Assembly (NCBI GenBank): GCA_010909165.1
Contig: MU008209.1
Coordinates: forward strand, 394,919-458,918
Source of the DNA: Anthoceros angustus
Lineage: Eukaryota; Plantae; Anthocerotophyta
DNA: 64,000 nucleotides
Direction: 5' to 3'
The notes under the pieces are model-generated. The model was not told the origin of the DNA, made no database searches, and saw only the letters and a list, made by a program, of their open reading frames with translations. Both the position numbers and the translations under genes were made by a program. Positions 15,249-62,186 of this stretch are shown here, in pieces (the first letter of the stretch is position 1; each line of letters opens with the position of its first letter).

Positions 15249-15627
15249 GTGAAGCGTGAAAAGTTTGGGACTACCGGTGTCCCGAGTATGAGCTTGTCCC
15301 GGGGCAACTCCACCAATCTTAGCTGTGAGGACTATGGGATCGCCTTGTCCCATAGTGAGGCCCGCCCCTTGGTGGGACCGCCATGTCCCAAAGTTGGGAT
15401 GGCCCCTTGCCCTTGTGGATCGGGTAAGGTATCCGTCGCAGCTAAGGGGAACGCCATGTCCCATGGCCGGGACGATCTGGTTGCGCCCTTGCCTCCTCGT
15501 TACTAGCCCACTTATTGTCACTCCAGATTCGGACTCGTAGAATGGGGCCAAAGTTTCGGTCCGAGTATGAGTCCGCCACAAAGGGTCCCCTTGCAAAGAA
15601 CAAAATATGCTGGGAGAGCATCTGCTC
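15249..15627 (-). repeat. Family A repeat B2
   Basis: Same ends as 16410-16786 (GTGAAGCGTGAAAAGTTTGGG...GGGAGAGCATCTGC); the GC-rich middle is diverged. Confidence 0.85.
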
Positions 15628-16405
15628 AAAGGGATCCCCGCGCAATGGCAGGAATCACGAGATTTCTTGAAGATTTCTTGGCTAGACCAGTTTCTGGCTG
15701 GAGCCAGAATCAAGCCTTCCTTGTAGGGAAGCACACGAGCAAAACACAGATCCGATCGATCTTGGATTTCAGATTGCAAGGGTTCACAAAGTGCTTTCCT
15801 CCCTAACCCAAGGCGCTGCACGATTTGAAGACTACCCTCATTCCTTGCCCCACGGTCCTCAATCCCGCCGCCATCATCTCCATGCTCCGCTCGATTCCCA
15901 CCGATGTTTGCGCCATGATGCGAAGCAACCCTCACGCTTGGTGGTGCTCCTCCCACGTTGATCGGTGCCTTGTTTGGGTTTGGGTCCAGCTTTGGTTTCA
16001 CACCTAAACTAAGTGGCTTTTCTAGCCTACCTAGTTATCCGCTCATAACGGATCTATTTCTATAACTAGTATTTAAAGGAAATGAATCCTTGGACTATGG
16101 GCCAATCAAAATAAAGGATATGTTTTCATGTCCTTGGTTAATGAAAATGCCTAACCAAACGTAGTATAAAAGCAAGCATACATCGAGTTCACATTCTTTG
16201 CATGCGCCCTTAGTTCTTGTGTCTGACGTTGGGCTGGGCTGCATTTCCAGCCTGTGGACTGCATGTCCCATGGCTGGGATGGCTGTCCGGTGTGGACGCC
16301 ATGTCCCATGGGGGATCCGGCTATCCGGCTGGACTACCATGTCCCATGGCGATTCTGTCCTTGGGGATCGCCATGTCCCATGTCTAGGACGGTCTTGGCA
16401 ACCTC
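15628..16405 (-). repeat. Family A repeat A2
   Basis: Matches 35309-36160 from AAAGGGATCC to GGTCTTGGCAACCTC. Confidence 0.9.
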
Positions 16406-16409
16406 GGCC

Positions 16410-16786
16410 GTGAAGCGTGAAAAGTTTGGGACTACCGGTGTCCCGAGTATGAGCTTGTCCCGGCAACTCCACCAATCTTAGCTGAGGACTATGGGGTGCC
16501 TTGTCCCATAGACAGCCTGCAGCCCCGGCTGGACTGCCATGTCCCAAAGCTGGGATGCCGGCAGCCCCGGGACCGCTGTCCTGGCTGTCGAGTCCGGCAG
16601 CCTGGCTATGGGCCATGTCCCATGGCGATAGTCCTGTTGCAGCTCCTTGCCTCCACATTAGCCCACTTATCGTCACTCCAGATTCGGACTCTGTAGCTGA
16701 ATGGGGCCAAAGTTTCGCACCAGTATGAGTCCGCCACAAAGGGTCCCCCTTGCAAAGAACAAAATATGCTGGGAGAGCATCTGCCC
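16410..16786 (-). repeat. Family A repeat B1
   Basis: Copy of B2, adjacent to the end of the PHD ORF. Minus-strand TGGGGTAGGG at its inner border (16784-16793). Confidence 0.85.
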
Positions 16787-16809
16787 TACCCCAGCCATTG
16801 AAGCTTGTG

Positions 16810-18010
16810 TCAGAATGTCGAGGCTGCCGGAGAGGCAGCACATAGTGGACAATACCACGCAGTTCCCGGCACCCTGAGAGAGGCGCAAAGCAAAATAGGT
16901 GGTACCACGTGCTGGTCGCACAGATCAGCGTGGTCGTCTCCTCCGCAACTGCATGGGTAATCACCGAGGTACCCAATCACGACAATGGTTGGATCCAGTT
17001 GGGCAAATGGCAAGGCGCACAATTTTTCATGTGATCCTTGGTGGTACGTCCATCTGATCCTTGTAGCACTAGCACACCATTGTCCTTGACCTCCGAACTC
17101 GCAACATGTCGACGTGGTGGTGTCAAGGGTGTCTCCCACTTGCTTCGCAAGCAAAACAAAGTCCCACCGAATTTCTTGAGCTTGGGTCTGAAGCTGCCGC
17201 TGCGAGTGTGGGCATATCTAAGGGTGTCCCGATGTTGGGCAATCCTCAAATTAGCCATGGCCATCGGCATGGCTTGTCAAACAGTGCACGCCCGACCGAT
17301 GACCGTTGCCCAAATTGCTGGATCATCCAGATCCACTACCTCATAGAGTTGCTTGGCAATGGAGCTAGGCGGCATGGGTTCCCTCCCAAACAGCAAGAAG
17401 TAGGGACTGAAATGTGCCAAGGAGGCATGCCGACTCACACGGTAGCCCATGGCGATGTAGGGAAGAGCCAAGTCCCACTCTGTCTTTGGCATTTGAAGGC
17501 AGAGCTTCCTTAGACCCTTCTTGATGGTCTGTACCATCCGTTCAGCCAGGCCATCAGCCTGAGGATGGTCTCGGCTGGTCCTACGATGGTCGATGAGCGC
17601 TGTGTCCAGCAGGTCTTGGAATTCCCCTCGAAATTCAGACCCCTGATCCGTCAAGCACTCGGAGCAGCTCCCAAAGCGACTCAACACATTGTGAAGAAAG
17701 GCCTGAGCGGTGCTTTTGGAGCTCTTGTCCGGCAGGGCCACCACCTCTACCCACTTGGAGAAGTGCTCCATCATGACAAGAATGTACACGTTCCCTCGTG
17801 GTGTCTTGGGTAGTTCACCCAACAAGTCACAAGACCACCTAAAGAACAGCCCCATGATAGGCAAAGGGTGTGAGGGTTACGGATGGTGAAGGAGGTCTTC
17901 ACTGTCAGCCCTTGCAACAAAGCCACCGCTTGACTTGGGCGTACATCCCTTGCCAATGGAAATGTGGGAGGAGCAAACTGTAAGTACGCTTGACTCCAAA
18001 ATGGCCTGTC
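16810..18010 (-). pseudogene. Family A integrase (H2C2 zinc finger, DDE core) with degenerate C-terminal PHD finger
   Basis: GHFGVKRT, WSCDL...EHFSKWVEV...TDQGSEF...PQADGLAERMVQTIK, and C-terminal YPC...WYCPLC. Confidence 0.9.
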
Positions 18011-19543
18011 GTGCAAAAACAGCTGGACATCGGATAGCACAACATTTCGCTCACGCCTTGTGCATGTGGTAACACCACTAATCGACTACAAACATTTGCA
18101 AAGAACGTGACATGTCATGATCATACTCAACTACGACCCGAATGCACATCCGGCCGAGAGCTGATTAGAAAAGAAAACAATAATCCTGCTAAATTCCCAT
18201 CAAAATGCCTCATTCAATCGCCTATCACCGATCAAACGCGTGAGTTTGAGAGTTCACAGAGCCGGACATAGTGCCGCAACCCAAAACCAAGTGTCGACTC
18301 GGACATCCGTGATCGAAATTCCCAAGCAAGCTTTCGGCATTCACTAATCTATAACGGCCAGAGCTCTCCTCCTCGCTCAAGAGACTCTCAAGACTATCCT
18401 AAGCCAAGCACGCTTGCCTCTTGTATCCGCGCCTAGCCTGCCGCCTCTCCGCCCCTCCCGCCATGCATCGCCTTCCATCCTTTTCCATGATTGCTTCCTG
18501 TCACTCTCACGCTCCCGCAATCTCCTCATGATCCGGCAAATCAATCGGTAATTTCACCACGACCTTCCCGAAAACTAATGGCTAACAATACATGACATTT
18601 CTAGATGTCAAGATATTACCGATATCCTCTCTCTATGTACATGGACTTGCCTCAACCAATGATCCCGACACGCGTGAAGATGACATATTGGTCGGCAAAA
18701 CAAATTGGACATCGGATAGCACAACATTTCCTCACTTTTGTTGTATGTGGTAACACCACTAATCGACTACAAACATTTGCAAACGTGACATGTCATGATC
18801 AACGGCTCAACTACGACCAATGCACATCCGGTGAGAGCTGATTAGAAAAAGAAAACAATAATCCTGCTAAATTCCCATCAAAATGCCTCATTCAATCGGT
18901 CTATCACCGATCAAACGCGTGAGTTTGAGAGTTCACAACAGAGCCGACAGTGCCGCAACCCAAAACCAAGTGTCGACTGACATCCGATCGAAATTCCCAA
19001 GCAAGCCATTCACTAATCTACAACGGCCAGAGCTGCCCCCTCCGCTCAAGAGACTCTCAAGACTATCCTAAGCCAAGCACGCTTGCCTCTTGTATCCGCG
19101 CCTAGTCGCCTCTCGCCGCCCCTCCCGCCATGCATCGCCTTCCATCCTTTTCCATGATTGCTTTCCTTGTCCTCACCAGCCTCACAATCTCCTTGTTATG
19201 ATCCAAAGAAATCAATCGGTAATTTCGCCACGACCTTCCGAAAACTAATGGCTAACAATACATGACATTTCTAGATGTCAAGATATTACCGATATCCTCT
19301 CTATGTACATGGACTTGCCTCAACCAATGATCCCGACACCGTGATTCCAAAGATGACACCGTGCAAAACAAATTGGACATCGGATAGCACAACATTTCGC
19401 TCACACAGGTATGTGGTAACACCACTAATCGACTACAAACATTTGCAAAGAACGTGACATGTCATGATCAACCAACTACGACCAATGCACATCCGTCGAG
19501 AGCTGATTAGAAAAAGAAAACAATAATCCGCTAAATTCCCATC
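18011..19543 (-). repeat. Family C 3' repeats: B3 18011-18201, A3 18202-18685, B2 18694-18879, A2 18880-19358, B1 19361-19543
   Basis: About 680-bp periodic sequence. A units run AAAATGCCTC...GATGACA and B units run G(T/G)GCAAAA...AAATTCCCATC. Confidence 0.9.
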
Positions 19544-19581
19544 CCCATAAGCCAAGAGAAGGCCAACACGAGAATGCTGGT

Positions 19582-20800
19582 TCAACTAGAACTGCCAGGA
19601 TCCCAAAGAGGTCTGGAGCTGGTCTCTCCATTACACTGAGCACAATACCACAATCCTTCAGGCACCTCTGTTAATGGCGGAACAAGGCAAAACAGATGAA
19701 AGCCTCCATTACAACCATCACAAAGCAACATGAGCTCAGGGTCATCCACCCGTTGACAAACTTGACATGGATAATCACTAGGTGGCACCCAATTCGCTGT
19801 GACAATCGTGGGATCCAGATTAGGTAGATGGCAAGGAGCACAATTGGTCATGTGGTCTTGTATAGTCCGCCATCGCTCCTCGAGCACCAACACACCTGGA
19901 TCAAGTTCCTTCACACGCAGTAATGCCGTTAGTAGAAGGTTCTAATGTGTCGCCAGCTTGTCGCTGAAGATAAACATAATCGCCAACATGGAACTTCCTC
20001 ATCTTAGGTCGAAATGCCCACTCGTGTAAGCATAACGTAAAGAGTCCCGATGTTGAGCAATTTTCACCGCCATCGCCATAGGCATGGCTCGCTAAACAAC
20101 ACCGCCTGCCGCCAACAACCTTAGCCCAAGTGGCTGGATCATCCAGCTGGACCACCTGGTTCATTTCCTTGGCAATGGCAACCGGCGGAACCGGATCTCG
20201 TCCAAACAAGAGGAAATACGGTGAAAAGTGAGCTAGAAGCGTGTTTGCTCATACGCACCATAGCCACATATGGCAAAGCCAAATCACTGTCTTAGACATC
20301 TTGAGCAACAACTTACGAGCCCTTGTTTGATGGTCCGAACAAGTCGCTCACCAAACCGCCGCCTTGAGGATGGTCTCGCTAGTGCGTGATCGATGAATGC
20401 AAGTCTCAGATCTTGGAATTCTCCCGAATGTGCCTTGATCCGTCAAACACTGCATGACTACCAAAGCGATCGAGAACATGCAAAGAAGGCCCGAGAAGTG
20501 CTTCGGATGACTTGTCCTAGAGCCACAATTTCGCCCACTTGGAAAAATGTTCCACCATCACCATCACATACACGCTACGAGGCGCCCGGCAAATCTCCTA
20601 TAAGATCACAAGACCATCGTAAAACAAACCCATAATGGGTAATGGCGATGGCTTGATGTTAAGACTTCACTCACACCGCTCGCAAAGACGCCACCACGCC
20701 ACGCACTTGAGCATACATCCCAAACCAATGGAAATGAGGAGACAATAAACTATATGTTCGCTTGACCCCAAAGTGACCCATGTCGAATGAGCACGCATGA
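19582..20800 (-). pseudogene. Family C integrase with intact C4-H-C3 PHD finger
   Basis: CQVCQRVDDPELMLLCDGCNGGFHLFCLVPPLTEVPEGLWYCAQC at about 19636-19770; DMGHFGVKR and FGRDPVPP integrase motifs upstream. Confidence 0.9.
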
Positions 20801-20959
20801 CCAAAGCTATTCATGTGGTGTGCACCAGCACGAGCCCGTAGACAAGGTGCGGATCAAATAGCCATCTTTCCAACGATACCGAGCTCCGTCAGATCCGATC
20901 TCGCTGAAGTGTGTGCAATCAGCAGAAACAATCCACTTTGAAGAAACCGTAAGATGATC

Positions 20960-22200
20960 ATCTTCCCATATGTCGCGATGTGCCCGAAATCGCAATGGTT
21001 CTCCATGTCCCACACATAGATTCCGCAAACATGTTGTCAGTAAGAAACTTGACCCGTGATCTCATGGTCCCGCTTAGCACACGCCTCATCCTCATCACGT
21101 AGTCGGGATGTCGAAAGCACATCCGCATTCTCGTGTGTGATGCCGTGGCGAACGACTTGGAAGTCATAATCCGCAATGTCATTGCCCACCTTGCGACCTT
21201 GCCACCGAGCTTAGTATTCGTCATAAGCCAACGTAAAGGCGATGGTCACCACCAAAGTAAATGGCCGACCATACAGATAAGGTCCGAAATGGCAAATGCA
21301 TCATGCCAAACACTCCTTCATAGCTAGGATAATTGCTCTCACCTTGTTGCTACGTGCATAAGCGATAACACGCTCATGTCCTTCTTCGTCGCCAGTAAGC
21401 CGGCTCCAATACCTAATCGACCTAATCCGTATGAAGCACAAATGGCTTCTCGAAGCCGGGCCATCACAGCGCCATCACTTTCTTCAACAATTCAAATGCT
21501 GCTAAGTCCGTCCAATCCCAAATCACGCCCGCGCAGAGGTTGTTAAGTGGTTTAGCAAGACGCTAAAATCTTGAATGTAAATCCGTAGTAGTTACACAAT
21601 CCCAAATAGGAGCGCACTGACACACCGAGAATGTGTACCTCTAACACCTTGAACCTTTGCAGGTGGCATGATACCGTTAGGCACAATCCTATGTCCCAAA
21701 TAGGCGACAGATCCATGCCCACACACTTAGGATGGCATTTGAGTCCCGCCTATGGAGCTGCAAAATAGATCCTCTAAATGCCTCAAATGAGCCTCAAAAT
21801 CCTTCGTGCACGAGCACATCATCAATATAGCAAAGCGATGAGCAGCCCGGACAATACCTTGTCCATGATACAGAAATGTAACAGTGCATTTCAAACCCAA
21901 ACGGCATAAACAACCATTCCCATAGCCGCGAGCCATGAAATGTCTTTTTATGTCTTCTTCAACCATTGGCACCGGTTGAATCCTTGCCGCAGGTATAGAA
22001 CAGAGAAGAATGCTGACTGTCCGATGCTATCGAATAGCTCCTCCGTGTGGGCATCGGATAACGATCTTGAGCCGCACGCATTGATCGGTCGATAATCACC
22101 ACACATGCGTCGTCTATAAACCCCGATCGCCCTTCTTAGGAGGAAGAAGCACCGTGCATAAGTGGATGGTCGAATCAATCTCGCCTCAGCCTCGCTTATC
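20960..22200 (-). pseudogene. Family C RT and RNase H, heavily frameshifted
   Basis: RMCGDYRPIN, LRQGFN, and TNTKLGGKVARWAM motifs. Confidence 0.85.
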
Positions 22201-22599
22201 GACTATTTCCCATTCGCAGATCGAGCTCGTAACGACGCCGGTAGATGGGCTCATTAGTTGTCACCGCACTCAACTTCATAACGCAAGTACCAAGGTCCTT
22301 CATCGAAAACGCAAAACAATCTTGATATGTTATCATAAGCAATCCGCTGATCATTTGTCAATCGGACCCATCTTCCACCGGAAATCAGCCACTCTTAGCC
22401 TCGATTGCTTCGCCGATAACGCAACGAGTCGCCAGATCATCACCGTCGGAAACGATGATCTCTAAAATGCATACTCCCCGCCTTCCGAAAAGGCATGAAA
22501 AGCTCGAAAAGGCGATGAACAAAGATCCGATGACACAAGCGCGATCGCCAATCGACAAAGCCGCAAAACCAGGACCAAAGAAAAGTTGAAAGCCAAACA

Positions 22600-23500
22600 G
22601 ATGTCGACGAGTGTCACAAAGATGTAAATCCATGGCACGACCCAGCAAAGACATCACGAGCAATAGAAATGCCGAGCGGCAGATCGTGAGTCGCAAACCC
22701 CATAATGCTCCCGCCTCGCCAGCGGGTTCCTCCCAACGCCGAGTCTCGAATGCAAGAATAATCCCGGCCTTCCACGATACGCATAAGACCGAAACTAACA
22801 AGTGTAGGCAAGGTACGTCGCGGATAACCCACCTCATTGGTAGCAAACCATGGGGCTTTCTCCGGTCTGAATCGTCGAGGAGAGTGATAAACTTCGAGCA
22901 CATCCTGTAATTGACGTTCAGCAGGACGAATAGTATGATGTAAAGACAATACAAGGATCACAACGAGCCCGCTTTGTCCAAAACTGCGAAGACGATGAGC
23001 ATAATCACGCACATGCATCAAAACCGAGGCGGGCCCAAAACATGCTGCACCAAATTGGCGTCATGGCGCACAGACAGCCGAGAATCTAGATGTGCAGGAG
23101 TGTTTTCCAGAGTGTAAACCACCGACGGATTACACTGCTGAAACTCATGCTGCAGCTGCACGAGAGGCAAGAACAACCCAGATCGCGAATCCTGTAGGCC
23201 ATCCCCAAATCCAGCTTGGGAGAACCCCTGGCATTCCCAACCCGCAACCACAAGGTCCACACGTCCTAAAGCTTGAACATGGGAGGATTGAATCAACAAG
23301 ATGTCTTGTGGCAGGGTAGTAAAAGCACAATTGCAAGCGGACTGATTAAATTGCTGGGGAAAACGGATGCACAATCGCCGCAAACGATGTGCGAATTTGA
23401 CGAGCCACTAAGCGCTTATCACAGTAATAACTATGAATACGCAATCCGCACGCAATGGCCTCCAAGCTGCAAATACCTCCAAACAACTCCACCAATACAT
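22600..23500 (-). pseudogene. Family C DNMT3-like C5 cytosine methyltransferase domain
   Basis: Motif I VELFGGI (23469-23492); motif IV VDLVVAGWECQGFSQAG..GLQDSRSGLF (about 23170-23265); motif VI LENT (about 23100); AHRLR..WT (about 22980-23010); IMGF and LLGRAMD (about 22625-22720). Confidence 0.85.
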
Positions 23501-23899
23501 GCCTCGATGAAAGGCCACGAAATAGTCACACGTGTGAAAGCAACTCCTGTGCAATCTGCCCAAAGGTGCGAGGCCAGCCCAGCCACGATACCGAACGCAA
23601 ATTGACATGATGTTGAGCCTCAACCGACAACGAGGGTGACCGACAATCATCTCATCAACAAGAGCACAAGCCTCCACCATCGAGTCGTGCGCCACTTCAT
23701 CGATAGTCTCATCAACTCGAAAACAACCATTGCTCATGCTGATCATCCTTGACCAACCGAGGAATAAACTGCACCATACAGACATGGCGACCAGCCAGCG
23801 ACACTTCCATGTCATCATTGCGGTGATGCAAATCAAGTGGAATGTAGGCCAACCGCTTGCCTCCTTGCTGCCAATCAATTATGTAAAAAGCTTGCTCTG

Positions 23900-24435
23900 T
23901 CCAATTATCAATACTGACCCCAGGTGGAAACAAAAACTCCTGGCACAAGAGTACATCATAATTGGTAGCAGAAACCGCATAACGAACTCGAGAGTCACAT
24001 CGGCGCACGGTCAAGAGCAATAGACATTGGAAACACTGTCTCACCCTAGATCGGCTCCACAGCTCCCATTGCTGTACGGATGTTCCAGGGAGAGTTGCGT
24101 AATGCTGATCCCATCAACTGCAATCGAGTGGCCAGAGTCTGACCAATAATAACTGGCTGAGCACCAGTATCGAACAACACCATACGAGGTGCAACACCAT
24201 TGATCGTCACATGACCAGCGGTATTGTTCACCAATGCATGATTGACCCGAACTTGCAGGCGATTTGTTGGTTGCACCAACGGATTGCCTTGAGTGGCAAG
24301 GGCCAAGTGTGAAACCATCACCGGTTTTCCAGCAGCAAGTGGCTCAATCCAATCCAGCTCACTGGTAGCTAGAGCATCAGCTAGTGCTGTCTCACCAGTA
24401 CTCGGCTTGTCTAACTCGACTATCACGGCGTACAC
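23900..24435 (-). pseudogene. Family C aspartic protease
   Basis: VLFDTGAQPVIIG. Confidence 0.85.
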
Positions 24436-24999
24436 TGAACCAAATGATGTAAAGGAAGCAACCTGCGGGCCCCTATTCCCACCTCCTCAAGAGAAAATAA
24501 AGGTACATGCACCGCTTGTAGCAATCCCTCCCACGTCATGGAAGACAAACGAATAGGTTCACCTCCTTGATCTCTCACGACTCACGCCCGATATGGCAAA
24601 TGGTCTCGAACCACGCAATGGCGGAATGACGCCAAAGGTACAATGGCAAACGACTTAGGCATGATCGCCCTAGCTTGTCGCAACGATACTTTTGCCGTGG
24701 GAGCCGAACCTCCGCCGTCATGCTGGCCACTCGACCTAACCAAGAGCAAGGTAAGTCTTCTAGCATACTAGATGTGTGCACAACGTGCTCGCCTGTAATT
24801 TTCTTCGCCTCACCATCTTGTGAGCCATGCAAACATGGTAAGGATCCCCATAATCTTCTCCCACACGTACATGCTCATCAGGAGAGTCACAAACCATAAC
24901 TCCTGCAAGTTTATCTTCAGACACCACGAGCGAAGCTCCTCCAGCAGGCTTGACTGCCAAACTAGCAGTAAGTGTACCCAACTGCGTTGTAAGAGCAGC

Positions 25000-26500
25000 C
25001 ACAGCAGTTTCCAGTGCGGTTACCTTACTAGCATTGGCCACAGTCTTCTGCTTAAACTTCTCCCGCTTTAATTTGCTCTTGAAACAGTCCCCGCAGATGT
25101 CCCCATTATAGTAGGAGACCCAATGGCAATCATGGATGCTGAAATTTCACCATCTCCACCCGCCTTTTGCACTCGACGCCAGAAACTGAAACAGATCGTC
25201 ACAACATGACCGTGACAAGATGTGTAATACAATGACTCCATCACGCATTTGCATGGAGACAATGTTCGGTGCTTCCACATCTGTTACACAACGGTGAAAA
25301 GTGAAAGCAGGTTCGCTTATCGGTTTAACCTGTGTAGGCTTTACCACTCCACTGCTGCCGACTCCCGTCGAGTTACTTTTGCTAGCGGCAAACATGTGCT
25401 GATAATGCGAGTACGCCTTCGAGTGTTTGTAAGCATGTCGAGAATGCTACCCTTTCGCCTCGCTCAAACACTGCTCAAGAGTGTATTGATCTCCGTACTT
25501 GTCAACAAGTGAAGTGAACAATTGGAAATGAAATAATGGCTCCGTCTCCAAAGCACTAAGAAACTTCGAGCACTGATCAATCAACATGCCAAGACTTCCT
25601 TAGCTTCAGAGACGACGGAAAAGCCATTTGAATTTTCCTTTCGTGTAAACGCAGACAACTATAATCTTCTCTGGGTCTTGAAAGGAAAAGCCTTCTCAAG
25701 AATGATAAAGAATTCCTCCACCGGATTAGCGTAAGCTGGAACCTCAATGTATTCTTCTATACCCGCCGTGGCCGCAGCACGCTCTTGGGAGGTCATACTG
25801 ATCACTCCTGGAGGTTTCACATTAGGTGACACAGTACTAGCAGCGATGGCGGCTTGATGAGCTGACACCGCTAATGCATGCAAATTATTATACGCCACCT
25901 GCAAGGCTTGCTGATAAGCAGGATTAGGAGTCACAGATGTAGCCAGCAATGCAGCTGCATGTGTCTCATATAGATCGAGAGCCTCATCTGCCATGTAACC
26001 AGGCAGCTGCTCAAACATGTAACGATCTGAAAAGCTATGCCATGCTTGAATTTCACACGGCTAGTAAGGAAGTTGAAATAGAGCTGAAATCACGAAAGTC
26101 TGCGTGCAGTCTACCAGAAAACTTATCCGATTTGGCTGGAAGAGAACCAAGACGCCATGATTTGAGTCACTCGAAGAACCGAGCTCGACCGCTAGTCGTG
26201 ATCTCACCAATGGTGACCAGCCAACCAGATACGGCCGTTGAAGATGTCTCTTCAGAACAAGCGCATCTCCCGCTTGCGGGTCTTCCACGGATGCTCACTC
26301 ACGTAATCGATGATTTTGCTCTTTTTGGAGGTGTGCGAGCCACATGCTTGAGCACCCTCCTTGAACGTAATTGGTGGTGCCTCACCACTCAGCTCATCCG
26401 GCGATCCGTCATGCATGTAAGAACAATGATCGAAACCGATTTCATCCAACAACTTGATTACCACATTCTGTTTCACGACATCGAATCCGGACCCTAACTC
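25000..26500 (-). pseudogene. Family C gag-like region with zinc knuckles
   Basis: MFEQLPGYMADEALDLYE, homologous to family A MFEQLSSYLADEALDLYE; Cys/His knuckles at about 25100-25300. Confidence 0.75.
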
Positions 26501-26628
26501 AAGGCTTTCTCAAGAACCGTAACAAGGTCCTCGCAGCTTGACATCAAGGTGATGACATATGCAACTAGGAACATAGCTCAAGAACCCTAGTTCTTTCTCA
26601 AGCACGACATCACACGCGCCGTCGGAGC

Positions 26629-26640
26629 AGTCTTGAGAGT
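26629..26640 (-). promoter_or_regulatory. Family C candidate self-priming primer binding site
   Basis: AGTCTTGAGAGT directly abuts A1 and is the exact reverse complement of 26828-26839. Confidence 0.7.
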
Positions 26641-27148
26641 AAAATGCCTCATTCAATCAGCCTATCACCGATCAAACGCGGTGAGTTTGAGAGTTCACAA
26701 TGTGAGCCAAACATAGTGCCGCAACCCAAAACCAAGTGTCGACTCGGACATCCGCATCGAAATTCCCAAGCAAGCTTCGGCATTCACTACATAGCGCCGG
26801 AGCTCGTCCTCCCTCCGGCTCAAAGAGACTCTCAAGACTATCCTAAGCCAAGCACGCTTGCCTCTTGTATCCCGCGCCTAGTCGCTGCCGCTCTCGTCCT
26901 CCTCCCTCCCGCCATGCATCGCCTTCCATCCTTTTCCATGATTGCGTTTCCGGTCTTGTCACTCTCACCAGCTCCCGCGAATCTCCTTGTTATGATCCAA
27001 AATCAACTGGTAATCACCACGACCTTCACGAAAACTAATGGCTAACAATACATGACATTTCTAGATGTCAAGATATTACCGATATCCTCTCTATGTACAT
27101 GGACTTGCCTCAACCAATGATCCCGACACCGTGATTCCAAAGATGACA
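26641..27148 (-). repeat. Family C repeat A1
   Basis: Matches 18880-19358 and starts TGTCATC on the minus strand. No B sequence on either side. Confidence 0.9.
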
Positions 27149-28700
27149 GCCCATGTCAGCTGGCACTCGATTTAATCAGCTCCCTATCGTGGTGGTGGCA
27201 CCAATCGCTCCAGCCCATTGGTCGCCTCCTCAAAGAATGCCCATCACGCCATTGATACTTGGCCGAATTCTTTCTTGCTCGTGCTCAATGGCTGATCCAA
27301 ATTGTCCTGTTTGGACAAATAGGAGAGTTTCGGAGTCTTCCTAGATGTCCTTGGACCTCCTGTCCCCAGCATATGTGCTCAATGCTAAGGACGCCCCATA
27401 TTGGATTGTCCCATACGGGATACCACCCAGCTTGTCAAAGCCACCATCGCAGCCACCGACACATGCTGCAGATCTCCATCATCTTGGTCCTGTCGGCTTC
27501 TGTAACATCTTCGCAACAGCACTGGGATTCCGAGAGAGAGTGTCCGCTTTGGTGTGTGACTCGCTGGTGCACCACTTGAAATTCATAGTCCTGCAAGATC
27601 ATGGCCCACCTTGCAAGCTTCCCACTCAACTTGGTGTTGGTCATCAGCCATTTGAGGGGCTGATGGTCGTGACCAGCGTGAAGGGCTTGCCATACTGTGT
27701 AGGCCTAAATGACAAACCGCCCATACAGCCGCTAGACACTCCCTTGGTAGCTACTGTAGTTAGCTTCACGATTGTTGCTGCGTGAAGCATACGCAACCAC
27801 CCGCTCCTTTCCATCTTCATCTTGTTGGGCTAGCACAGCCCCTAGGCCCAAGATGCTCCAATCCGTATGTACCACAAACGGCTTGGAGAAGTCAGGTCTG
27901 GCCATGACAGGAGCTTCCGTCAAGCTCAGTTTCAGCGTGTCGAAAGCTTGCTGGGTCTTCTCTGTCCAGGCCCAAACAACATCCTTCCGCAGCAAGTCAT
28001 TCAGCGGCTTGGCAATTCGGCTGAAGTCCCGAATGTATACTCGGTAATAGTTGCATAGGCCGAGGAAAGCTCGCAGGGCAGAGAGGTTTGTGGGCTCTCG
28101 CACCTGCAAGATGGCCTGTACCTTGGCAGCATGAGGCATCGCGGCACAACCCTATGACCAAGGTATGCCACGGTGTCCATGCCAAATTCACACTTGGCGG
28201 GTGACATGTCAATCTTCGCAATCTCTTGAACAGATCTTCCAGGTGCACCAAATGAGACTCAAAGTCCTCTGTGGACCAGGACATCATCAATGTAGCACAT
28301 GAGGTTCGAACGCAAGTACTATGTCCATTACGCTGGAAAGTCACCGGCGTTCTTGAAGCCAAAGGGCATCACCAGCCATTCCACAGCTGCTGAGAGCCGT
28401 GGAAGGCTGTCTTCTTGATGTCCTCTTCAGCAACAGGCACTGGTTGAAGCCTTGACGCAAATCCAAAATCGAGAAGTAGGTAGACTTGCCAATGTTGTCG
28501 AAGATCTCCTCCGTTGGCATGGGGTACCGATCTGGCTGTCACCGAGTTGATAGGACGGTAGTCTCCGCACATCCTCTTCTCTGTCCACATCCGTTGTGTC
28601 CTTCTTGGGAGGCATCACCGTGGCAGATAGTCGGAGCTAGAGGGACGAATGAGCCCGGCTTCAAGCAACTCTTGACAGTGCATCCACCATGTCCCACTCT
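27149..28700 (-). pseudogene. Family A RT, RNase H and start of integrase
   Basis: RMCGDYRPINSVT, YIDD, LRAFLGLCNYYR, VHTDWSILGLGAVLAQ...VVAYASR. Confidence 0.9.
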
Positions 28701-29139
28701 GAGCCGTAGCGCCTCAGATAGGCTCCTTGCTGGTCGATTGATGCGGAAGGTGGTCACATTGCATCGCTTCACCCCGCATGGAGAAGGCAAACAGCTGGTA
28801 TTGGAGCAAGGGCATGTATCTGCTGCCCTTGTGAGTTGGGGCCCCATGACCCAATCGAAAGTCTCAGACATAAGGCTTGGGTGCTGTGAATTGGGAGTCC
28901 CTACTAATCTCCATAGGATCCCCATACTGGACGGTCCCATACTCGGAGCATTGCCATGTCCACGAGCTTGATGCTGAGAATGCAGGGATGGCCATGCCAC
29001 CTCCCCCCGCATCAAGCCAATATGACCGTGGTGTATCCGGGAAGGGCAAATGGATGTGCACAAGAAGATGTGGGAAAAGGACCTCGGTGGGAGCTCCGGG
29101 AATGCCAACAGCTGAAAGGCCAGACATATGCTGATGAGC

Positions 29140-30150
29140 CAAGTGAGTGACAGATCCATAGCGCCCAAGGCGGCATGACCTGGTAACTTGGGAGGCAGCG
29201 GCATGGGTGTGGAAACCCATGACGCTCCGCTCCTCCACATTGGGCTCCTCCCACCGGTGGGTGTTGCTGTTGAACAGCGAGCTTGTCCCCTGTAGGCATA
29301 GGAGCCGTGAAAGCTCACTAGGGTGGGAAGGGTCCGCTGCCCCGGTGGGAGCTCAAGGTGCACGCTGCCACTGTCTGGGATGCCAAGGGTCCAACACATT
29401 GGAGAGCTTGAGAGTGGGGTCCCGAGTAGTGCGGGTGACCACCAACTCTAGCAAAGGTTGAGGCGTTGGTCCAATAGTGCAGGCGATGAGCAAACCGCCA
29501 ACTGGACTCCATGAGCAAGGGCGTGCCCACATGCTGGATGATGGCCATGTCTTGGCGAACTTGCAAGTGTCCCGCGGTGTTCTCCAGCAAGCGCAGTGGG
29601 CTGGTGAACATCCACCAAGATGCGTGAAGGTCCCAAAACAAGGCGGTTCGTGGATCTTGTAATCCTCCCCGTGGCGGCTTGAGAAAATCCGGCATTCCCA
29701 TCCGCAATCAAGTGGATGGGGCCAATGTGGCGGGCCCAATATGGATGTCTTGGGGCTGAGGGTGCAGATAGCTGGCAAGTAGTGAAGGGAATGCACTCCA
29801 AGCAGCGTGCAGCTTGGGACAATGGTCCAATAAATGTAACGTGACCAAGATGCCATTGAGGGGTCCCCAGTGAGTGTCCCGACTGCTCGTCCCATGTCTT
29901 GACCCACCACGTCTGTTCTCCATGTGCCCAGTGAAGGCTCGCTGCGAATGTGGCGGGGCGCGCTTGTGATGCTGATGATGTCTTGGGCCTGCCGGCGGGC
30001 CCCATGGTAGAGAATGGCGTGGAATAGTGAAGAATCGCAGCCGGTGCCATAGAATGCATTGCGCCTTGGGACATGTTCACGACCAAGATGCCATTCAGCA
30101 AAAGAGCCTCAGCTACCAGCAGTGCAAATGCCCCAAATGCAAAGTAATGC
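29140..30150 (-). pseudogene. Family A DNMT3-like C5 cytosine methyltransferase domain
   Basis: FG.ICT..EALLLNGILV (about 30080-30145); IA.WEC..FSQA..GGLQDPRTALFWDL (about 29640-29710); LLENT; AHRL..WTN; VMGFHTH; AALGAMDL. Confidence 0.8.
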
Positions 30151-30376
30151 GTGGCACACGATGATCTTGGCTCACCGTGGTGGAGGATGCCTGTCCGCCC
30201 AAGGGGGAGTGCTGAAGCTGCAGAGCTTGCTGCACTCGTGGAAGAGCTTGCTGAACCAGGTCGGACACTTTGAATGATGGTGGAGTGTCTCCTAGGCAGG
30301 CTGCTGTGACCAAATGGTCGGCCTCGTGATCTGGATCCAAGTCGGCAAGCTCCAGCATGTCACTCAAATGCTGGCC

Positions 30377-31573
30377 GTGGGAGCACCTCGGGGACAGCCT
30401 GAATGGTCGCCATAAGGACTGGAGTAGCTAGGACAGTGGCGACCTCGGTGTCCAATCCGCCATGCAGATTCAAGGGAAAGTGCGCCACTTGCTGACCTCC
30501 ACTACGCCAATCGGGGCGATAGTGAGCTTGCTCTGTCCAATTGTCCACGCTGATGCCGGGTGGAAACAAAAACTCCTGTCCGAGAAGGACATCGTAGTTA
30601 GCAGCTGTCGTGACAAGGCAATGAATGGCCAATGTCATGGCAGCGGCTATCCCGGGCTTGAGCGTGATGGCGCACACAGGTTCCACAGCGCCAGAGGCTG
30701 TCCTGATGTTCCAGGGTGAATGGCGGAGTGCCGTTCCCTGCAAGTTCAACCTGGCGGCGAGAGCCTTGCCAATGATCACGGGCTGTGCCCCCGTGTCCAA
30801 GAGCACAAGCTTGGGAGCATAGCCATTCACCGTGACATGGCCTTCCCTATTGTCCACCATGGCATTGCTCACTCGCACATTCATGCGATTGGTGGGCTGA
30901 ATGCGGGTGCTCCCGAGTACTCCGCGCTGGGACGCAGGCGCATCGCCTCCAAGTGGCTGGCCCTCCTCATGGCTGTGGGAGCACCTCGGGACAGCCTGAA
31001 TGGTCGCCATAAGGACTGGAGTAGCTAGGATGGGCGACCGTATCCAATCCGCCATGCATTCAAGGGAAAGTGCCACTCGACCTCCACTACGCCAATCGGG
31101 GCGATAGTGAGCTTGCTCTGTCCAATTGTCCACGCTGATGCCGGGTGGAAACAAAAACTCCTGTCCGAGAAGGACATCGTAGTTAGCAGCTGTCGTGACA
31201 AGGCAATGAATGGCCAATGTCATGGCAGCGACTGTCCCGGGCTTGAGCGTGATGGCGTGGTCAGCCTCCACACACAGGTTCCACAGCCAGAGGCTGTCCG
31301 ATGTTCCAGGGTGAATGGCGGAGTGCCGTTCCTCGCAAGTTCAACCGGCGGCGAGCCTTGCCAATGATCACGGGTGCCCCGTGTCCAAGAGCACAAGCTT
31401 GGGAGCATAGCCATTCACCGTGACATGGCCTTCCCTATTGTCCACCATGGCATTGCTCACTCGCACATTCATGCGATTGGTGGGCTGAATGCGGGGTGCT
31501 CCCGAGTACTCCGCGCGCGCTGGGACGCATAGGCGCGCATCTGCCCTCCAAGTGGCTGGCCCTCCTCATGGCT
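30377..31573 (-). pseudogene. Family A aspartic protease, present as two tandem copies of about 600 bp
   Basis: LLDTGAQPVIIG region at 30377-30974 and again at 30975-31573, with GTGGG at the junctions. Confidence 0.85.
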
Positions 31574-31669
31574 GTGGGTGGCCTGCCCTGTCACTCCCAC
31601 CATCGTAACATGGTCGATGGTGGTGGGCAATACCCAGCCTGAAACGTCAGGTAAGGCTGCCCATGTGGG

Positions 31670-32045
31670 ATCCACCGGCAGTCCCGGCTGTCCCGAGTAT
31701 GGGACTGCGGAGGCCCGGTGATGGGCTTCTCCTCGCAGTCCTTGGCATGGAGCTGAAGGTGCCTGGCATTGGGACTCGCCTGTCAGTCCCAGGTGTGGGA
31801 CTGTTGAGAGCCAAGGCTGAGATTCCCCCGGCAGTCCCGAGTATGGGACTGCGGAGTCTCGGTGTTGAGCCTCCACCGGCTGTCCCGAGTATGGGACTGG
31901 AGAATCCCAATGCTGGGGCCCTCCTGGCAGTTCTGAACATGGAGCTGTGGTGTGCCGCTGTTGAGGTGTCCCCAGCAGTCCCATGTATGGGACTGGAGTG
32001 TCCCGGCGCTGGGACTCTCCCGGCAGTCCCGAGTATGGGATAGCC
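31670..32045 (-). repeat. About 33-bp coding tandem repeat in the gag-PR linker
   Basis: Recurring GTCCCGAGTATGGGACTG, translating as repeated VPYSGLPGE-like units. Confidence 0.75.
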
Positions 32046-32599
32046 GCGGAAGCTTCAGCTGTTGCCAAGCCCAGCACCTGCTGTAACTGAGCACGCCCAA
32101 CTCCCATGTCCTGGAGGGAGATCAAAGGAGTCTCCAACACCTTGCGCATGATCAAGGTCGGGGTGTACGCCGGTGGTAGATGCGCGCGCACATTCGGCGG
32201 TGTCCCATGACTTGAATGTGGAGGCTGCTCTCTCGGCGCTCCATCCAGGTGATCCTGTCCCCGAACAGGGATGGCCACGCCAGGCGGCAGTGGCGCAAAG
32301 GATCTAGGCATAGTAGCCCTCGCCCTCTGTTGCCGAGTAAGGGGATCAGCGTCCCTAGCTGCAACATCCAAATGTGCCTTCTTCAAGTCACATCCTACCC
32401 ATGTGGCGGGTAGGATCAATCGGCGTGGAATCCACAAGACAATGGATGACAGCCTCATGTGGCAGGCCGTAATCCTCCTCTCCTCCTCACGGGTGCCAAA
32501 ATGGCGCCCGCGGGCTTGGAGGTGGAGGTGCCGCCACCGGCAGCCTGGGCTCCTAGCTGAGTAAGTGCTGCCACCGCTGCCTCCAATGCGGCAATCTTG

Positions 32600-33910
32600 T
32601 CAGTTAGCCGCTCCTTGGCCTTGGCCCCATTCCGCGTGATCGGCCCTTCGACGCATTTGAACGCGGCCGCTGGGAGTCCCGCTGAAGGTGTGGACCGTCC
32701 TTGCCGATATCGCGCCCGGATGCTTTTGAAATGCATCAAATGGCCAGTCTTGTTGCAATGGGAACAATGCAAACCTTCCACAGAAGCTTGCACGCCGGAG
32801 CCAAATGATCCGGGCTGCCACAGCGATTGCATAGCACTGTGGAGGTGGCTGCGGCTGCTGACTTGATTGGCCTGGCCTGAATGGGCTTGGAAACCCCTGA
32901 TCCCACGCCTCCAGATGTGTTCCCCTTGCTGGAAAACATGCTTTGATAGTGCGTGAAGGCCTTGGAGTGTCGAGAAGCATACGCTGAAAACGCGATTTCC
33001 TTGCGCTCCGCTTCTTCATGGACTGTTCGGTGTAGCTGTCCCCATACTTGTCCACCAAAGAGGTGACAAGTTGAAAGTGGAACAATGGATCTCCCTCCAA
33101 CGCCATAAGAAACTTCTCGGCTGCCTCTTGGTCAACATCCCAGTGCCTTCTCGCAGCTTCTGGAGCCTGCGAAAGGTCATCTGGACAGTCTCACCCTTCT
33201 TGCGAGCGAAACTGGCCAGCTCAGCTATTTTCTCAGGAGTCTTGAGCGGAAACGCCTTCTCGAGGATGGCCATGAACTCCTCCACCGGATTGAGGTACTT
33301 GGGAGTTTGGATGAACTCCGGGACCCCAATCGTGGCTGCCACCCTCTCAGCAGCAGTCAGACTCACCACGGATGGTGGCTGAACGGTGGCTGCGACTGTC
33401 CCAGCAGCAATCTTAGCCTGGTGGGCACTCACAGCCGTGGCCAACTTGCCATTGTAGGCAAGCTGCAGCGCTCCTTGAAACTGGGGATTCACCGTGGAGA
33501 TGGTAGAAGACAAATCAGCTTGATGTGCCTCATACAGATCCAGCGCCTCGTCCGCCAAGTAGCTTGAAAGCTGTTCAAACATGTACTGGTGATTGTAAGC
33601 GCCGCCATGCTTGAACCTGACCCGGCTGATGATAGCGTTGAGGGACAGCCGAAAGTCTCGCAGCGATTGAGTGCCAGGCCTCCGGAAAATCTGTCCCGCC
33701 TGTACGAGGGTCCTCCACCTTCCATGGTGTCCGAATCCTCCGAAAGATCAGCTGATTCTCGATCTTGTCTATCAAATTGGGACAAGTTTGTCCCAATTGA
33801 TCTCCCGGCAAGGAGTCGGATGATTCTTTGCCGGTTGAGATCTGCAAAATGGAGACCAGCTGGTTGCTGTCCAAGGTGGCAGGTGGCGTGGCCTGCAAAC
33901 CGCTTGCCAA
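32600..33910 (-). pseudogene. Family A gag-like region with two CCHC knuckles
   Basis: ORFs 33575..33910 and 33016..33582; CNRCGSPDH...C and CSHCNKTGH. Confidence 0.8.
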
Positions 33911-34224
33911 CTCCTCCTGTGCTTGCTGGTGTTGAAAAGAACGCCTTCGCTGTACTCCGCCGGAGTGGTCCGCTGGATGTCCCGTGTCCTCAAGCGGTAA
34001 CGGGGACTGATCTCATGTCCCTCGGGGTGCATCACCCATGTGACTAACGCATAAGATCAGCAACACTCCCTTAAATGTGAAAGAACAACGAAATCCTCCA
34101 CTCACTCCACTCCTGTCGCCAAGCCCGGTGTGAGCGCGCCTCCTAGCAATTCTGGCAGCAAAATGGATTACCCCTACGCTTGGATCACTCCAGCAGCCCT
34201 GGTGTAGGGTAGGGATTGTCCTAA

Positions 34225-34520
34225 CAGTCCCAGCAATGGGACTGGACAGTCCACGAAGTGGGACTGTCCCAGCAGTCCCGGCGCTGGGTCGGGACTGTCC
34301 CTACAGTCCCAGCAATGGGACTGGACAGTCCACGAAGTGGGACTGTCCCAGCAGTCCCGGCGCTGGGTCGGGACTGTCCCTACAGTCCCAGCAATAGGAC
34401 TGGACAGCCCACGAGGTGGGACTGTCCCAGCAGTCCCAGCGCTGTGTAGGGACTGTCCCTTCAGTCCCAGCAATGGGGCTGGACAGCCCACAAAGTGGGA
34501 CTGTCCCAACAGTCCCGGCT
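34225..34520. repeat. 79-bp tandem array (about 4 units) in the family A leader
   Basis: Units start at 34225, 34304, 34383 and 34462, rich in GGGACTGTCCC near-palindromes. Confidence 0.9.
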
Positions 34521-35296
34521 CTCCTCCCAACAATCCTTGAAATGGGACTGTTCCCACAGCCCTTGGAATTAGGACTGTACAGTCCCTAAAATGGGACTGT
34601 CTAGGGGTCAGCACCCACGCCTCAGCCTCTGAGAAAGGTCAGCAACGACAAACGGCACTCACACATCCGAAATTGAAACGTGAGTGTCAAATAAACGTGA
34701 TCCTCCCCTTCCACTTTCTGACCGCGCTGAGCCGGACACCTTGATGGTGGGATCTGTTCTCCTCTCCAGCACGCTGTCACTGTAAGAAACCAGCAGAAGT
34801 GAAAGGGCCGCTCACCAAATCCCAAAATCCCCAAAATCAGAAATGTTGGCAAAGTTGCAATCCGCCTGCTCCTGATCTGGGAATCAAACCAAAGTATCAG
34901 ACCATGCTGTAGCCCGCCTGAAATGGAGATCTTGAGTGGCAAGGTCTGTCCTCCCTCTCCCACAAGCTCTGCTGCAAAGATCGAAAAGGGATGAGAAAAG
35001 CGCTCGCTAGATCTTGAATTCCCAGCTGTATTTGGGAAAGCCCATGGATCAGGCCTGGATCTGGCCTCCTCTCTAGCACGCCATCACTGTAAGGAGCCAG
35101 CAAAGGTGAAGGAATGCCCTGAAGACCTCGAAATCCCAGCTGAATCTGGGAACGCCCACGGGCTGAGCCTGGATTGGGCCACAGCTGAAGGTGTAATCGC
35201 CCAGCTGTGATCCAGGCTCCAAAATGGCGTCGCCCCAGCTAGAGGAGGCGCCTCAAATGTCGCCACTCCGCCTTGGAGTGTCGCCCTTGAAGATTG

Positions 35297-35308
35297 AGTC
35301 TTCGAAAT
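35297..35308 (-). promoter_or_regulatory. Family A candidate self-priming primer binding site
   Basis: AGTCTTCGAAAT directly abuts A1 and is the exact reverse complement of 35513-35524. Confidence 0.7.
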
Positions 35309-36160
35309 AAAGGGATCCGCTGCGCAATGGCAGGAATCACGAGATTTCTTGAAGATTTCTTGGCCAGCCCAGTTTGCGCTGGCTGGGAGCCTGTAAATCG
35401 AGCCTTGGCGCCTTGTAGGGAAGCACGCTGAGCAAAACACAGATCTAATCGATCTTGGATTTCGATTGCAAGGGTTCACAAAGTGCTTTCCTCCTAACCG
35501 CGCTCCTGCACGATTTCGAAGACTACCCTCTGTTCCTTGCCCCACGGTCCTCATTCCCGCGCTCGCCATCATCTCCACGCTCCGCCCAGCTCGATTCCCA
35601 GCTGATGTTTGCGCCATGATGCGAAAGCAACCCTCACGCTTGGTGGTGCTCCTCCCACGTTGATCAGGTGCCTTGTTTGGGTTTGGGTCCAGTTTGGTTT
35701 CACACCTAAACTAAGTGGCTTTTTCTAGCCTACCTAGTTATCCGTTCATAACGGATCTATTTCCTATAACTAGTATTTAAAGGAAATGAATCCTTGGACT
35801 ATGGGCCAATCAAAATAAAGGATATGTTTTCATGTCCTTGGTTAATGAAAATGCCTAACCAAACGTAGTATAAAAGCAAGCATACATCGAGTTCACATTC
35901 TTTGCATGCGTACCTTAGTTCTTGTGTCTTGACGTTGGGCTGGTGGCTGCGACAGTCCCGGCAGTCCCGGCTGTGGGACTGCCATGTCCCATGGCTGGGA
36001 CAGTCCCGGCTGTCCCGGGTGTGGGACTGCCACGTCCCATGGCTGGGACAGTCCCGGCTATCCCGGCTGTGGGACTACCATGTCCCATGGCTGGGACAGT
36101 CCCGGCTGTCCCGGCTGTGGGACTGCCATGTCCCATGTCTAGGACGGTCTTGGCAACCTC
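35309..36160 (-). repeat. Family A repeat A1
   Basis: Matches 15628-16405; no B sequence adjacent. Confidence 0.9.
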
Positions 36161-62180: not shown

Positions 62181-62186
62181 GGGCGA

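What the first reader, a model, noticed from the sequence alone, without database searches (positions are those of the whole stretch)
22600..30150. Two gypsy families carry a DNMT3-like cytosine methyltransferase between protease and RT
Seen: in family C (22600-23500), family A (29140-30150) and a third copy (63330-64000), the protease-RT gap holds C5-MTase motifs in canonical order: LFGGI, GWECQGFSQAG..GL.D.R..LF, ENT, AHRLR..WTN, MGF, LG.AMD. Known: AHR.R.FW.N and ER..GF are DNMT3-type features, and DNMT capture by retrotransposons has been reported in charophytes and dinoflagellates (de Mendoza et al. 2018), so the capture itself may not be new. Both diverged families share the non-canonical WEC (for PC, catalytic Cys kept) and ENT (for ENV), which suggests selection. 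Inference: a protease-released DNMT packaged with the cDNA could methylate the new copy or its target.
Basis: partly seen in the sequence, partly recalled or inferred. Interest (0 to 1): 0.9.

Follow-up and report, generated by a model that had tools for sequence, protein, structure and literature searches.

The report
Plant retrotransposons carrying DNMT3-like methyltransferase
Two nested jumping-gene families in this probably moss- or liverwort-like plant genome each encode their own DNMT3-like DNA methyltransferase domain, which likely methylates the element's new copies; the arrangement is already described from a green alga, so this extends a known oddity.

Summary
Two Ty3/gypsy families (C nested inside A, plus a truncated second A copy) read gag-protease-DNMT-RT-RNaseH-integrase-PHD. 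The domain's profile and the predicted fold of a relative match DNMT3A/B best. Both elements have A-coding-B-A-B split repeats and TG...CA ends, the layout reported for KnitGypsy-Dnmt3 of Klebsormidium. A Klebsormidium protein found here has the same protease-then-DNMT order, so this is a new member of a known kind. Nearest named relatives are from a liverwort (Calypogeia) and Sphagnum; I found no paper on land-plant members, but this scan noted the same thing on other DNA (10 earlier notes). WEC and ENT are not private: among 200 homologous domains the residue before Cys is Glu in 121 and Pro in 67, while catalytic Cys, Glu and both Args are nearly invariant. Purifying selection is shown instead by near-saturated synonymous sites between A and C. 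Most frameshifts look like long-read deletion errors, so the copies may be young. Methylation of the element's own cDNA is the likeliest role but untested. Side result: related domains sit between RNase H and integrase in chlorophyte elements.

The parts
15245..36166 (-). Family A gypsy element, whole span (contains element C); ends TGTCA...CGACA, flanked by GAGG on both sides (4-bp target duplication)
35309..36166 (-). A: 5' repeat (A1)
32790..33681 (-). A: gag-like region and CCHC knuckle (32831)
   Evidence: tblastn with P0006
30456..30905 (-). A: aspartic protease (a 585-nt local duplicate lies at about 31080-31496)
   Evidence: PF13975 E 4e-12
29150..30150 (-). A: DNMT3-like C5-methyltransferase domain, frameshifted; N-terminal part scrambled and about 190 nt longer than in a short-read contig
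27530..28680 (-). A: RT (YIDD 28294) and RNase H
16820..18006 (-). A: integrase core and frameshifted PHD finger; interrupted at its start by element C
   Evidence: PF00665 E 3e-14
15245..16784 (-). A: 3' repeats B1 (16784-16406), A2 (16405-15628), B2 (15625-15245)
18007..27148 (-). Family C gypsy element, nested in A between RNase H and integrase core; ends TGTCA...CGACA
   Evidence: a short-read contig joins the two flanks
26641..27148 (-). C: 5' repeat (A1); no TGG primer-binding-like site follows
25632..26057 (-). C: gag-like match
   Evidence: tblastn with P0006
24004..24354 (-). C: aspartic protease (DTGA 24171)
   Evidence: PF13975 E 5.5e-7
22590..23520 (-). C: DNMT3-like C5-methyltransferase domain, motifs I to X in order, 8 frame breaks, no stop
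   Evidence: PF00145 28.1 bits
21105..22340 (-). C: RT (YIDD 21829) and RNase H
19620..20780 (-). C: integrase and PHD finger (about 19770-19630)
   Evidence: PF00628 E 1e-13
18007..19543 (-). C: 3' repeats B1 (19543-19359), A2, B2, A3, B3 (18201-18007); one A-B unit more than in A
62187..64000 (+). Second family-A copy, 5'-truncated: spacer, protease (about 62600-63040), DNMT motifs I-VIII (63337-64000), cut by the window end
   Evidence: PF00145 31.1 bits

Best explanation
These are two related Ty3/gypsy families of the Gypsy-DNMT3 kind whose coding region carries an intronless DNMT3-like domain between protease and RT, and this domain likely methylates cytosines in the element's own newly made cDNA inside the particle. 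Shown: domain order, DNMT3 affinity, catalytic Cys/Glu/Arg kept across the clade, purifying selection, split repeats with integrase-type ends. Inferred: the enzyme is active despite Glu in place of the Pro before the catalytic Cys; it is made in one polyprotein with protease and RT, may be cut free at the long linkers on both sides, acts in cis, and the new copy arrives pre-methylated and so looks like host heterochromatin, while the PHD finger would steer the integrase by histone marks. Identity of the element about 0.9; the cDNA-methylation role about 0.5.
For: Profile of 13 relatives ranks DNMT3A/B/C (E 2e-22 to 5e-16) above DRM2 (4e-10) and M.HhaI (1e-8). Model of relative P0024 (pLDDT above 90 over the domain) matches DNMT3B Z 28.4 (rmsd 2.5, 276 aligned) and DNMT3A Z 27.0 (2.5, 268), then M.MpeI 25.4 (3.2, 286) and M.HhaI 23.3 (3.0, 270); all 33 Foldseek rows shown are DNMT3 entries. 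In 200 domains: Cys 199, motif VI Glu 200, motif VIII Arg 197 and 196. A vs C: synonymous sites differ at 0.69-0.82, non-synonymous at 0.31-0.33 in the DNMT (58 and 92 codons). Natural single ORFs with protease-DNMT-RT: P0069, P0245, P0250, P0251, P0322. RT and DNMT trees both join A and C with Calypogeia/Sphagnum-type rows (99 SH-aLRT; 100/98), so the domain travels with the RT. DIRS-borne Dnmt3 domains methylate CG de novo in yeast, and the authors argue for action in cis (PMC5890265).
Against: KnitGypsy-Dnmt3 itself gave no methylation in the yeast assay (called inconclusive by the authors). The PC dipeptide is EC here and I found no biochemical data on such a loop. CpG observed/expected is low in family A (0.53-0.66) but not in C (0.89), against 0.76-0.84 in DNMT-less elements of the window, so there is no consistent self-methylation footprint. 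DNMT dN is about twice that of RT, integrase and protease (0.40-0.44 vs 0.18-0.22). In all 8 FPC-type rows, Klebsormidium included, the ORF stops 5-6 residues after the DNMT, so fusion to RT is not universal. Frame continuity in the window copies cannot be read. The 200 domains were found by a profile built on these motifs and include near-copies; the codon filter favours conserved stretches. No tree with host DNMT3 genes was built.
Confidence: 0.55

Rival explanations
1. The enzyme is active but acts at or after integration, methylating the insertion site and flanks, or other DNA in trans, together with the PHD-guided integrase.
For: PHD finger at the integrase C-terminus in C and A and in most relatives; in 110 of 201 domain-bearing proteins the DNMT sits beside the integrase, after RNase H. 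C inserted into another gypsy element in a repeat-only window.
Against: In this window the domain is far from the integrase; nesting is common for any element in repeat-rich DNA. No methylation data.
Confidence: 0.17
2. The WEC variant is a weak or dead enzyme kept as a DNA-binding or base-flipping module that shields cDNA or competes with host methyltransferases.
For: Pro of the PC motif is replaced by Glu in 121 of 200 domains; the Klebsormidium domain was inactive in yeast; faster evolution than RT.
Against: Cys, Glu, both Args and the SAM-binding glycines are near-invariant; Glu/Pro swaps at least 8 times, as expected of a tolerated position; the inactive Klebsormidium type appears to have ordinary PC (P0121).
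Confidence: 0.14
3. The substrate is the genomic RNA or the RNA:DNA hybrid during reverse transcription rather than finished double-stranded cDNA.
For: Position next to RT; these elements lack a visible tRNA primer site and have split repeats, so replication is unusual; failure on yeast chromosomal DNA would fit.
Against: Closest solved relatives are DNA enzymes, DNMT3 far ahead of DNMT2 (E 1e-22 vs 1e-6 to 1e-8; Z 28 vs 21-22).
Confidence: 0.1
4. The segments are decayed passengers (host DNMT3 fragments or assembly chimeras) with no role for the element.
For: All three copies are frameshifted; the assembly has local duplications.
Against: Same position in two families with saturated synonymous sites and in intact proteins from liverwort, Closterium and Klebsormidium; an independent short-read contig runs protease to DNMT; 67 of 73 breaks are missing bases and the DNMT segments have no stop.
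Confidence: 0.02

Closest known systems
KnitGypsy-Dnmt3 of Klebsormidium nitens (de Mendoza et al. 2018, PMC5890265; parts 1-5 of 7 of the text read, figures and main supplement not seen)
   Same: Gypsy domain set with an intronless, non-permuted DNMT3-related domain under purifying selection; DIRS-like A-coding-B-A-B repeats (Fig. 1e and 4c legends). K. nitens GAQ93235.1 (P0121, taken by me to be such a copy) has protease then DNMT; K. nitens integrase-PHD proteins match family A integrase (62%).
   Different: Host is probably a land plant (nearest named relatives Calypogeia and Sphagnum). Motifs WEC/ENT against FPC/ENV in P0121, which falls in another subclade and whose ORF ends 6 residues after the DNMT. 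A PHD finger is not mentioned in the text I read.
SymbioDIRS-Dnmt3 of Symbiodinium (same paper)
   Same: Dnmt3 domain in Pol, A-coding-B-A-B repeats; the only retrotransposon DNMT shown to be active (de novo CG in yeast).
   Different: DIRS RT and tyrosine recombinase; here gypsy RT, DDE integrase, TG...CA ends and 4-bp target duplication.
EpiLTRs and DAM-LTRs (bioRxiv 10.64898/2026.05.21.726589; parts 1-3 of 5 and passages read)
   Same: Gypsy-like elements with a methyltransferase and a chromatin reader.
   Different: Those carry DAM, a chromodomain and a DNMT4-sister enzyme; the window's elements carry a DNMT3-like domain and PHD, and no adenine methyltransferase follows the PHD. The preprint lists Gypsy-DNMT3 simply as streptophyte.
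Human DNMT3A/DNMT3B catalytic domain (PDB 6u8p, 4u7t, 2qrv)
   Same: Best sequence-profile and fold match; same motif order, AHR-x-R and E-x-ER-xx-GF motifs (alignment).
   Different: About 20% identity; SPC replaced by WEC; inserts after motif II and in the target-recognition region; no PWWP/ADD.

Membership tests
Gypsy-DNMT3 (KnitGypsy-Dnmt3 kind) | Ty3/gypsy domain set with protease-RT-RNaseH-DDE integrase | tested here: met
Gypsy-DNMT3 (KnitGypsy-Dnmt3 kind) | Intronless, non-permuted DNMT3-related domain | tested here: met
   328 residues in 936 nt in C, motifs I-X in order; DNMT3 best by profile and fold; no tree with host DNMT3
Gypsy-DNMT3 (KnitGypsy-Dnmt3 kind) | DIRS-like split repeats A-coding-B-A-B | tested here: met
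   both elements; C has one extra A-B unit
Gypsy-DNMT3 (KnitGypsy-Dnmt3 kind) | DNMT in the same ORF as RT and RNase H | tested here: inconclusive
   window frames broken; met in close relatives P0004 and P0069, not in FPC-type rows
Gypsy-DNMT3 (KnitGypsy-Dnmt3 kind) | [quoted passage not shown] | tested here: met
   A vs C dN 0.40, dS 1.9; third copy vs C dN 0.44, dS saturated; A vs third copy uninformative (7 differences in 43 codons)
Gypsy-DNMT3 (KnitGypsy-Dnmt3 kind) | Common descent with the Klebsormidium domain | tested here: inconclusive
   P0121 scores 405 bits with the profile and shares the position, but deep branches are unresolved and only one DIRS-like outgroup was used
C5-cytosine DNA methyltransferases (PF00145) | Catalytic Cys (IV), Glu (VI), Arg-x-Arg (VIII), motifs I and X | tested here: met
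   complete in C; partly readable in A and third copy; near-invariant in 200 relatives
C5-cytosine DNA methyltransferases (PF00145) | Pro-Cys dipeptide in motif IV | tested here: not met
   Glu-Cys in all three copies; Glu 121, Pro 67 of 200 relatives
C5-cytosine DNA methyltransferases (PF00145) | Methyl transfer from SAM to cytosine C5 | not testable with these tools
   needs an assay
DRM (domains rearranged) methyltransferases | Circular permutation of motifs (VI-X before I-V) | tested here: not met
   linear order I to X; DRM2 matches only the N-terminal part
SymbioDIRS-Dnmt3 / DIRS elements | Tyrosine recombinase and DIRS-type RT | tested here: not met
   DDE integrase, RT closest to Ty3 for relative P0030, target duplication present
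EpiLTR | DAM domain and chromodomain together with a DNMT | tested here: not met
   reading frame ends after the PHD and repeat B starts within about 80 nt

The most novel reading that the evidence does not exclude
These are young, perhaps still open-framed land-plant members of one ancient green-plant gypsy lineage that captured DNMT3 once, kept it from chlorophytes (Monoraphidium, Scenedesmus) through Klebsormidium and Closterium to bryophytes, moved it between two slots of Pol, repeatedly swapped the canonical Pro of the catalytic loop for Glu without losing activity, and replicates without a tRNA primer through split repeats while writing its own methylation; many chlorophyte members add an adenine-methyltransferase-like tail, a dual-methylase design not described with DNMT3.
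Probability: 0.35. Interest if true: 0.7.

Novelty: new member of a known kind. Interest (0 to 1): 0.42.

Why it matters
Cytosine methylation is the plant's main weapon against transposons, so elements that keep their own DNMT3 under selection raise an open question that the 2018 paper left unanswered: its one gypsy enzyme was inactive in yeast. Land-plant members and hundreds of natural variants (598 clusters at 50% identity with E up to 1e-30), with both Pro-Cys and Glu-Cys loops and two positions in Pol, make activity, substrate and role testable. The capture itself is known and this scan has noted bryophyte copies before, so this window adds breadth and unusually complete termini rather than a new system.

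Tried and rejected
No whole genome was held, so copy number and dN/dS over many genomic copies could not be done. Sequencing-run search listed 2 runs of one sample with small shares (0.10, 0.05) and no holder on record as RNA: no evidence on expression, and the host was not identified. The long contig does not cover the catalytic Cys codon of copy A. CpG depletion gave mixed results and may be biased by read errors. The AU test of whether the pre-RT rows form one clade returned no answer and was not repeated; nesting of the chlorophyte clade within streptophyte-type rows is therefore weak (84-91 SH-aLRT, unresolved, 81-96). The careful tree used 49 rows: 16 sampled post-RNaseH rows of 110, near-copies dropped; the RT tree used 22 of 57 post-RNaseH rows. 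Only the best 150 of 19,496 hits were seen. No host DNMT3 sequence was obtained for a tree. Literature searches for land-plant or chlorophyte Gypsy-DNMT3, split repeats with integrase, Selgy/PHD and Pro-Cys variants found only the 2018 paper and the 2026 preprint on point; the library lacks most subscription papers and Repbase reports. The 2018 main supplement (its Fig. S13a alignment) was too large to read and may already show motif variants. ARAGORN found 0 tRNA genes. Rejected: WEC/ENT as a window-specific innovation; a nested host gene; DRM origin; dead fossil status as the only reading of the frameshifts.
Full report
Observation. A frame-break-aware alignment to a natural relative, with X at each break, recovers motifs I to X in order in family C, motifs IV to X in family A, and I to VIII in the third copy, which the window end cuts. 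Motif I was not recovered in the family-A copy at 29150-30150, whose N-terminal part is scrambled. Two of 20 ORFs scanned pass the PF00145 cut-off, and a profile of relatives finds the three segments and no other place in the window. A third gypsy family in the window (protease 60519, RT motif 61881) has about 450 codons between these motifs against about 780 in C, and no methyltransferase.

Anatomy. Both elements lie on the minus strand and read gag, protease, DNMT, RT, RNase H, integrase, PHD finger. Self-comparison shows that neither has two ordinary LTRs: A is A1-coding-B1-A2-B2 and C is A1-coding-B1-A2-B2-A3-B3. Both begin TGTCA and end CGACA; A is flanked by GAGG on both sides and C by GGGC and GGC; no TGG primer-like site follows the 5' repeat. 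C sits inside A between RNase H and the integrase core; a short-read contig of family A joins 27191 to 18006 with about 43 letters between. The repeats within each element differ by 1.5-5.8% substitutions but by many gaps.

State of the copies. Of 73 frame breaks counted over eight segments, 67 are missing bases and 6 extra bases; the three DNMT segments hold no stop, the RT and integrase segments five. A 3213-nt contig from run X1 runs from upstream of the protease through the DNMT and differs from the window by 24 substitutions and 121 gap letters over the five pieces laid in 28829-30300; all 12 indel rows shown are letters missing from the window, 59 more rows were not shown. That contig may be another copy of the family. 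I infer that most breaks are long-read errors and that the insertions are young; a few stops and local duplications may be real.

The domain. A profile of 13 relatives ranks DNMT3A/B/C far above DRM2, M.HhaI and DNMT2 among solved structures. An AlphaFold model of relative P0024 is confident over the domain and matches DNMT3B (Z 28.4, rmsd 2.5, 276 aligned) and DNMT3A (Z 27.0, 2.5, 268) ahead of M.MpeI (25.4) and M.HhaI (23.3). The window's own copies were not folded.

Relatives. Searches found the same architecture in Calypogeia fissa, a fragment in Sphagnum magellanicum, and, by look-up, Klebsormidium nitens GAQ93235.1 and three Closterium clusters among 10 proteins asked about. Family A integrase is 77% identical to a Calypogeia integrase-PHD protein. 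The profile finds 598 clusters at E up to 1e-30. Of 201 proteins with most of the domain, 37 have it before RT, 110 between RNase H and integrase, 54 undetermined; the only named members of the second type are chlorophytes, Monoraphidium and Scenedesmus (1 of 10 clusters asked about). In the DNMT tree A and C form a clade (99/94) sister to Calypogeia and Sphagnum-type rows (100/98); the post-RNaseH rows form one clade (100/99); Klebsormidium falls in an FPC subclade; deep branches are open. The RT tree gives the same two groups (99 and 100 SH-aLRT). The host is therefore probably a bryophyte-grade land plant, but this is an inference from relatives only.

WEC and ENT. In 200 aligned domains, near-copies included, the catalytic Cys is kept in 199, the motif VI Glu in 200 and the motif VIII Args in 197 and 196; the residue before Cys is Glu in 121 and Pro in 67, and motif VI ends in Thr 88, Val 79, Ala 21. 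Glu and Pro exchange at least 8 times on the tree. So the two variants are clade-wide and tolerated, and A and C share them by descent. Selection is shown otherwise: between A and C synonymous sites are near saturation in every domain, while dN is 0.40-0.44 in the DNMT and 0.18-0.22 in protease, RT and integrase (the codon filter favours conserved stretches).

Mechanism. Relatives encode protease, DNMT and RT in one ORF, with 98-197 residues between DNMT and RT, so the enzyme would be packaged with RT and meet the cDNA first. I commit to methylation of the element's own cDNA as the likeliest role (about 0.5), following the cis argument of de Mendoza et al.. Against it: their gypsy domain was inactive in yeast, CpG depletion is seen in A but not C, and in all 8 FPC-type rows the ORF ends 5-6 residues after the DNMT. 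Release by the protease is untested. The internal B-A junction repeats both element ends, which could let them be regenerated without a tRNA primer; this is speculation by analogy with DIRS elements.

What is known. De Mendoza et al. 2018 (PMC5890265; parts 1-5 of 7 read; passages of the peer-review file; figures and main supplement not seen) describe KnitGypsy-Dnmt3 with a Dnmt3 domain in Pol and DIRS-like repeats. A 2026 preprint (10.64898/2026.05.21.726589; parts 1-3 of 5 and passages) and Sarre et al. 2025 (PMC12344493, passages) place such elements in streptophytes without naming land plants in what I read. A PHD-bearing gypsy is described in Chlamydomonas (PMC9940879, passages) with no methyltransferase in its listed domains. 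Passages of PMC8557442, PMC6317226, PMC6673714 and PMC11244446 added nothing on this family. Nine searches found no account of land-plant or chlorophyte Gypsy-DNMT3 or of the Glu-Cys loop. Ten earlier notes of this scan, 8 shown, report the same kind of element in other DNA, mostly peat moss; none for this genome.

Verdict. A real, selected DNMT3-like domain in two gypsy families: a new member of a known kind, extending it to a probable land plant, with complete termini and a clade-wide non-canonical catalytic loop. Interest 0.42; 0.7 if the single ancient lineage with an active Glu-Cys enzyme holds.

Noticed in passing
proteins P0014, P0089, P0136, P0145 and others: 36 proteins of the post-RNaseH type end in a further domain with DP-x-x-G and SP-(P/W)-(F/W)-like motifs, resembling an adenine (amino) methyltransferase; with DNMT3-like and PHD domains this would be a dual-methylase element unlike the DNMT4-sister EpiLTRs. 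No Pfam methyltransferase hit at E 0.01 for the four scanned.
   Followed up: partly
P0033, P0078-P0080, P0083, P0108, P0121, P0243: In the FPC subclade, Klebsormidium included, the gag-protease-DNMT ORF stops 5-6 residues after motif X, so the DNMT is not fused to RT there.
   Followed up: partly
P0021: A DIRS-like protein with DNMT3-like domain (WPC/ENV), RT and a C-terminal NPPF motif: cytosine and adenine methyltransferases in one ORF.
   Followed up: no
P0028: Named as a bacterial (Obscuribacterales) methyltransferase in NCBI, but its cluster mate P0077 is a gag-protease-DNMT retrotransposon protein; likely misbinned eukaryotic DNA.
   Followed up: partly
window 60150-62187 (+): A distant gypsy family without DNMT (protease, RT); its frame runs straight into the 5'-truncated family-A copy at about 62187, by recombination or misassembly.
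   Followed up: partly
window 31683-32046 and 35948-36128: 48-bp tandem repeats between gag and protease of family A resemble (about 60-70%) tandem repeats in its own terminal repeat.
   Followed up: no
window 30372-31578, 29690-30053, 18007-18879, 9381-12070, 34190-34522: Local duplications: 585-nt protease repeat, about 190 extra nt in the family-A DNMT, an extra A-B unit in C, an 812-nt exact repeat in a copia RT, and a 79-bp array; some may be assembly artefacts.
   Followed up: partly
run X1 contig laid (joints at 32453, 23219-23272, 28440-28596, 27850, 18003): A deep contig touches the pre-protease region, the family-C catalytic motif, RT, RNase H and integrase in that order by short matches: possibly a further DNMT-bearing family in that sample.
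   Followed up: no
window 8086-14610 and 53700-55200 (+): Copia-type elements (RVT_2, SH3) without a methyltransferase; no host gene was recognised among 108 ORFs scanned.
   Followed up: partly
window 56325-56724: A solitary, about 74% identical relative of the family-A terminal repeat.
   Followed up: no
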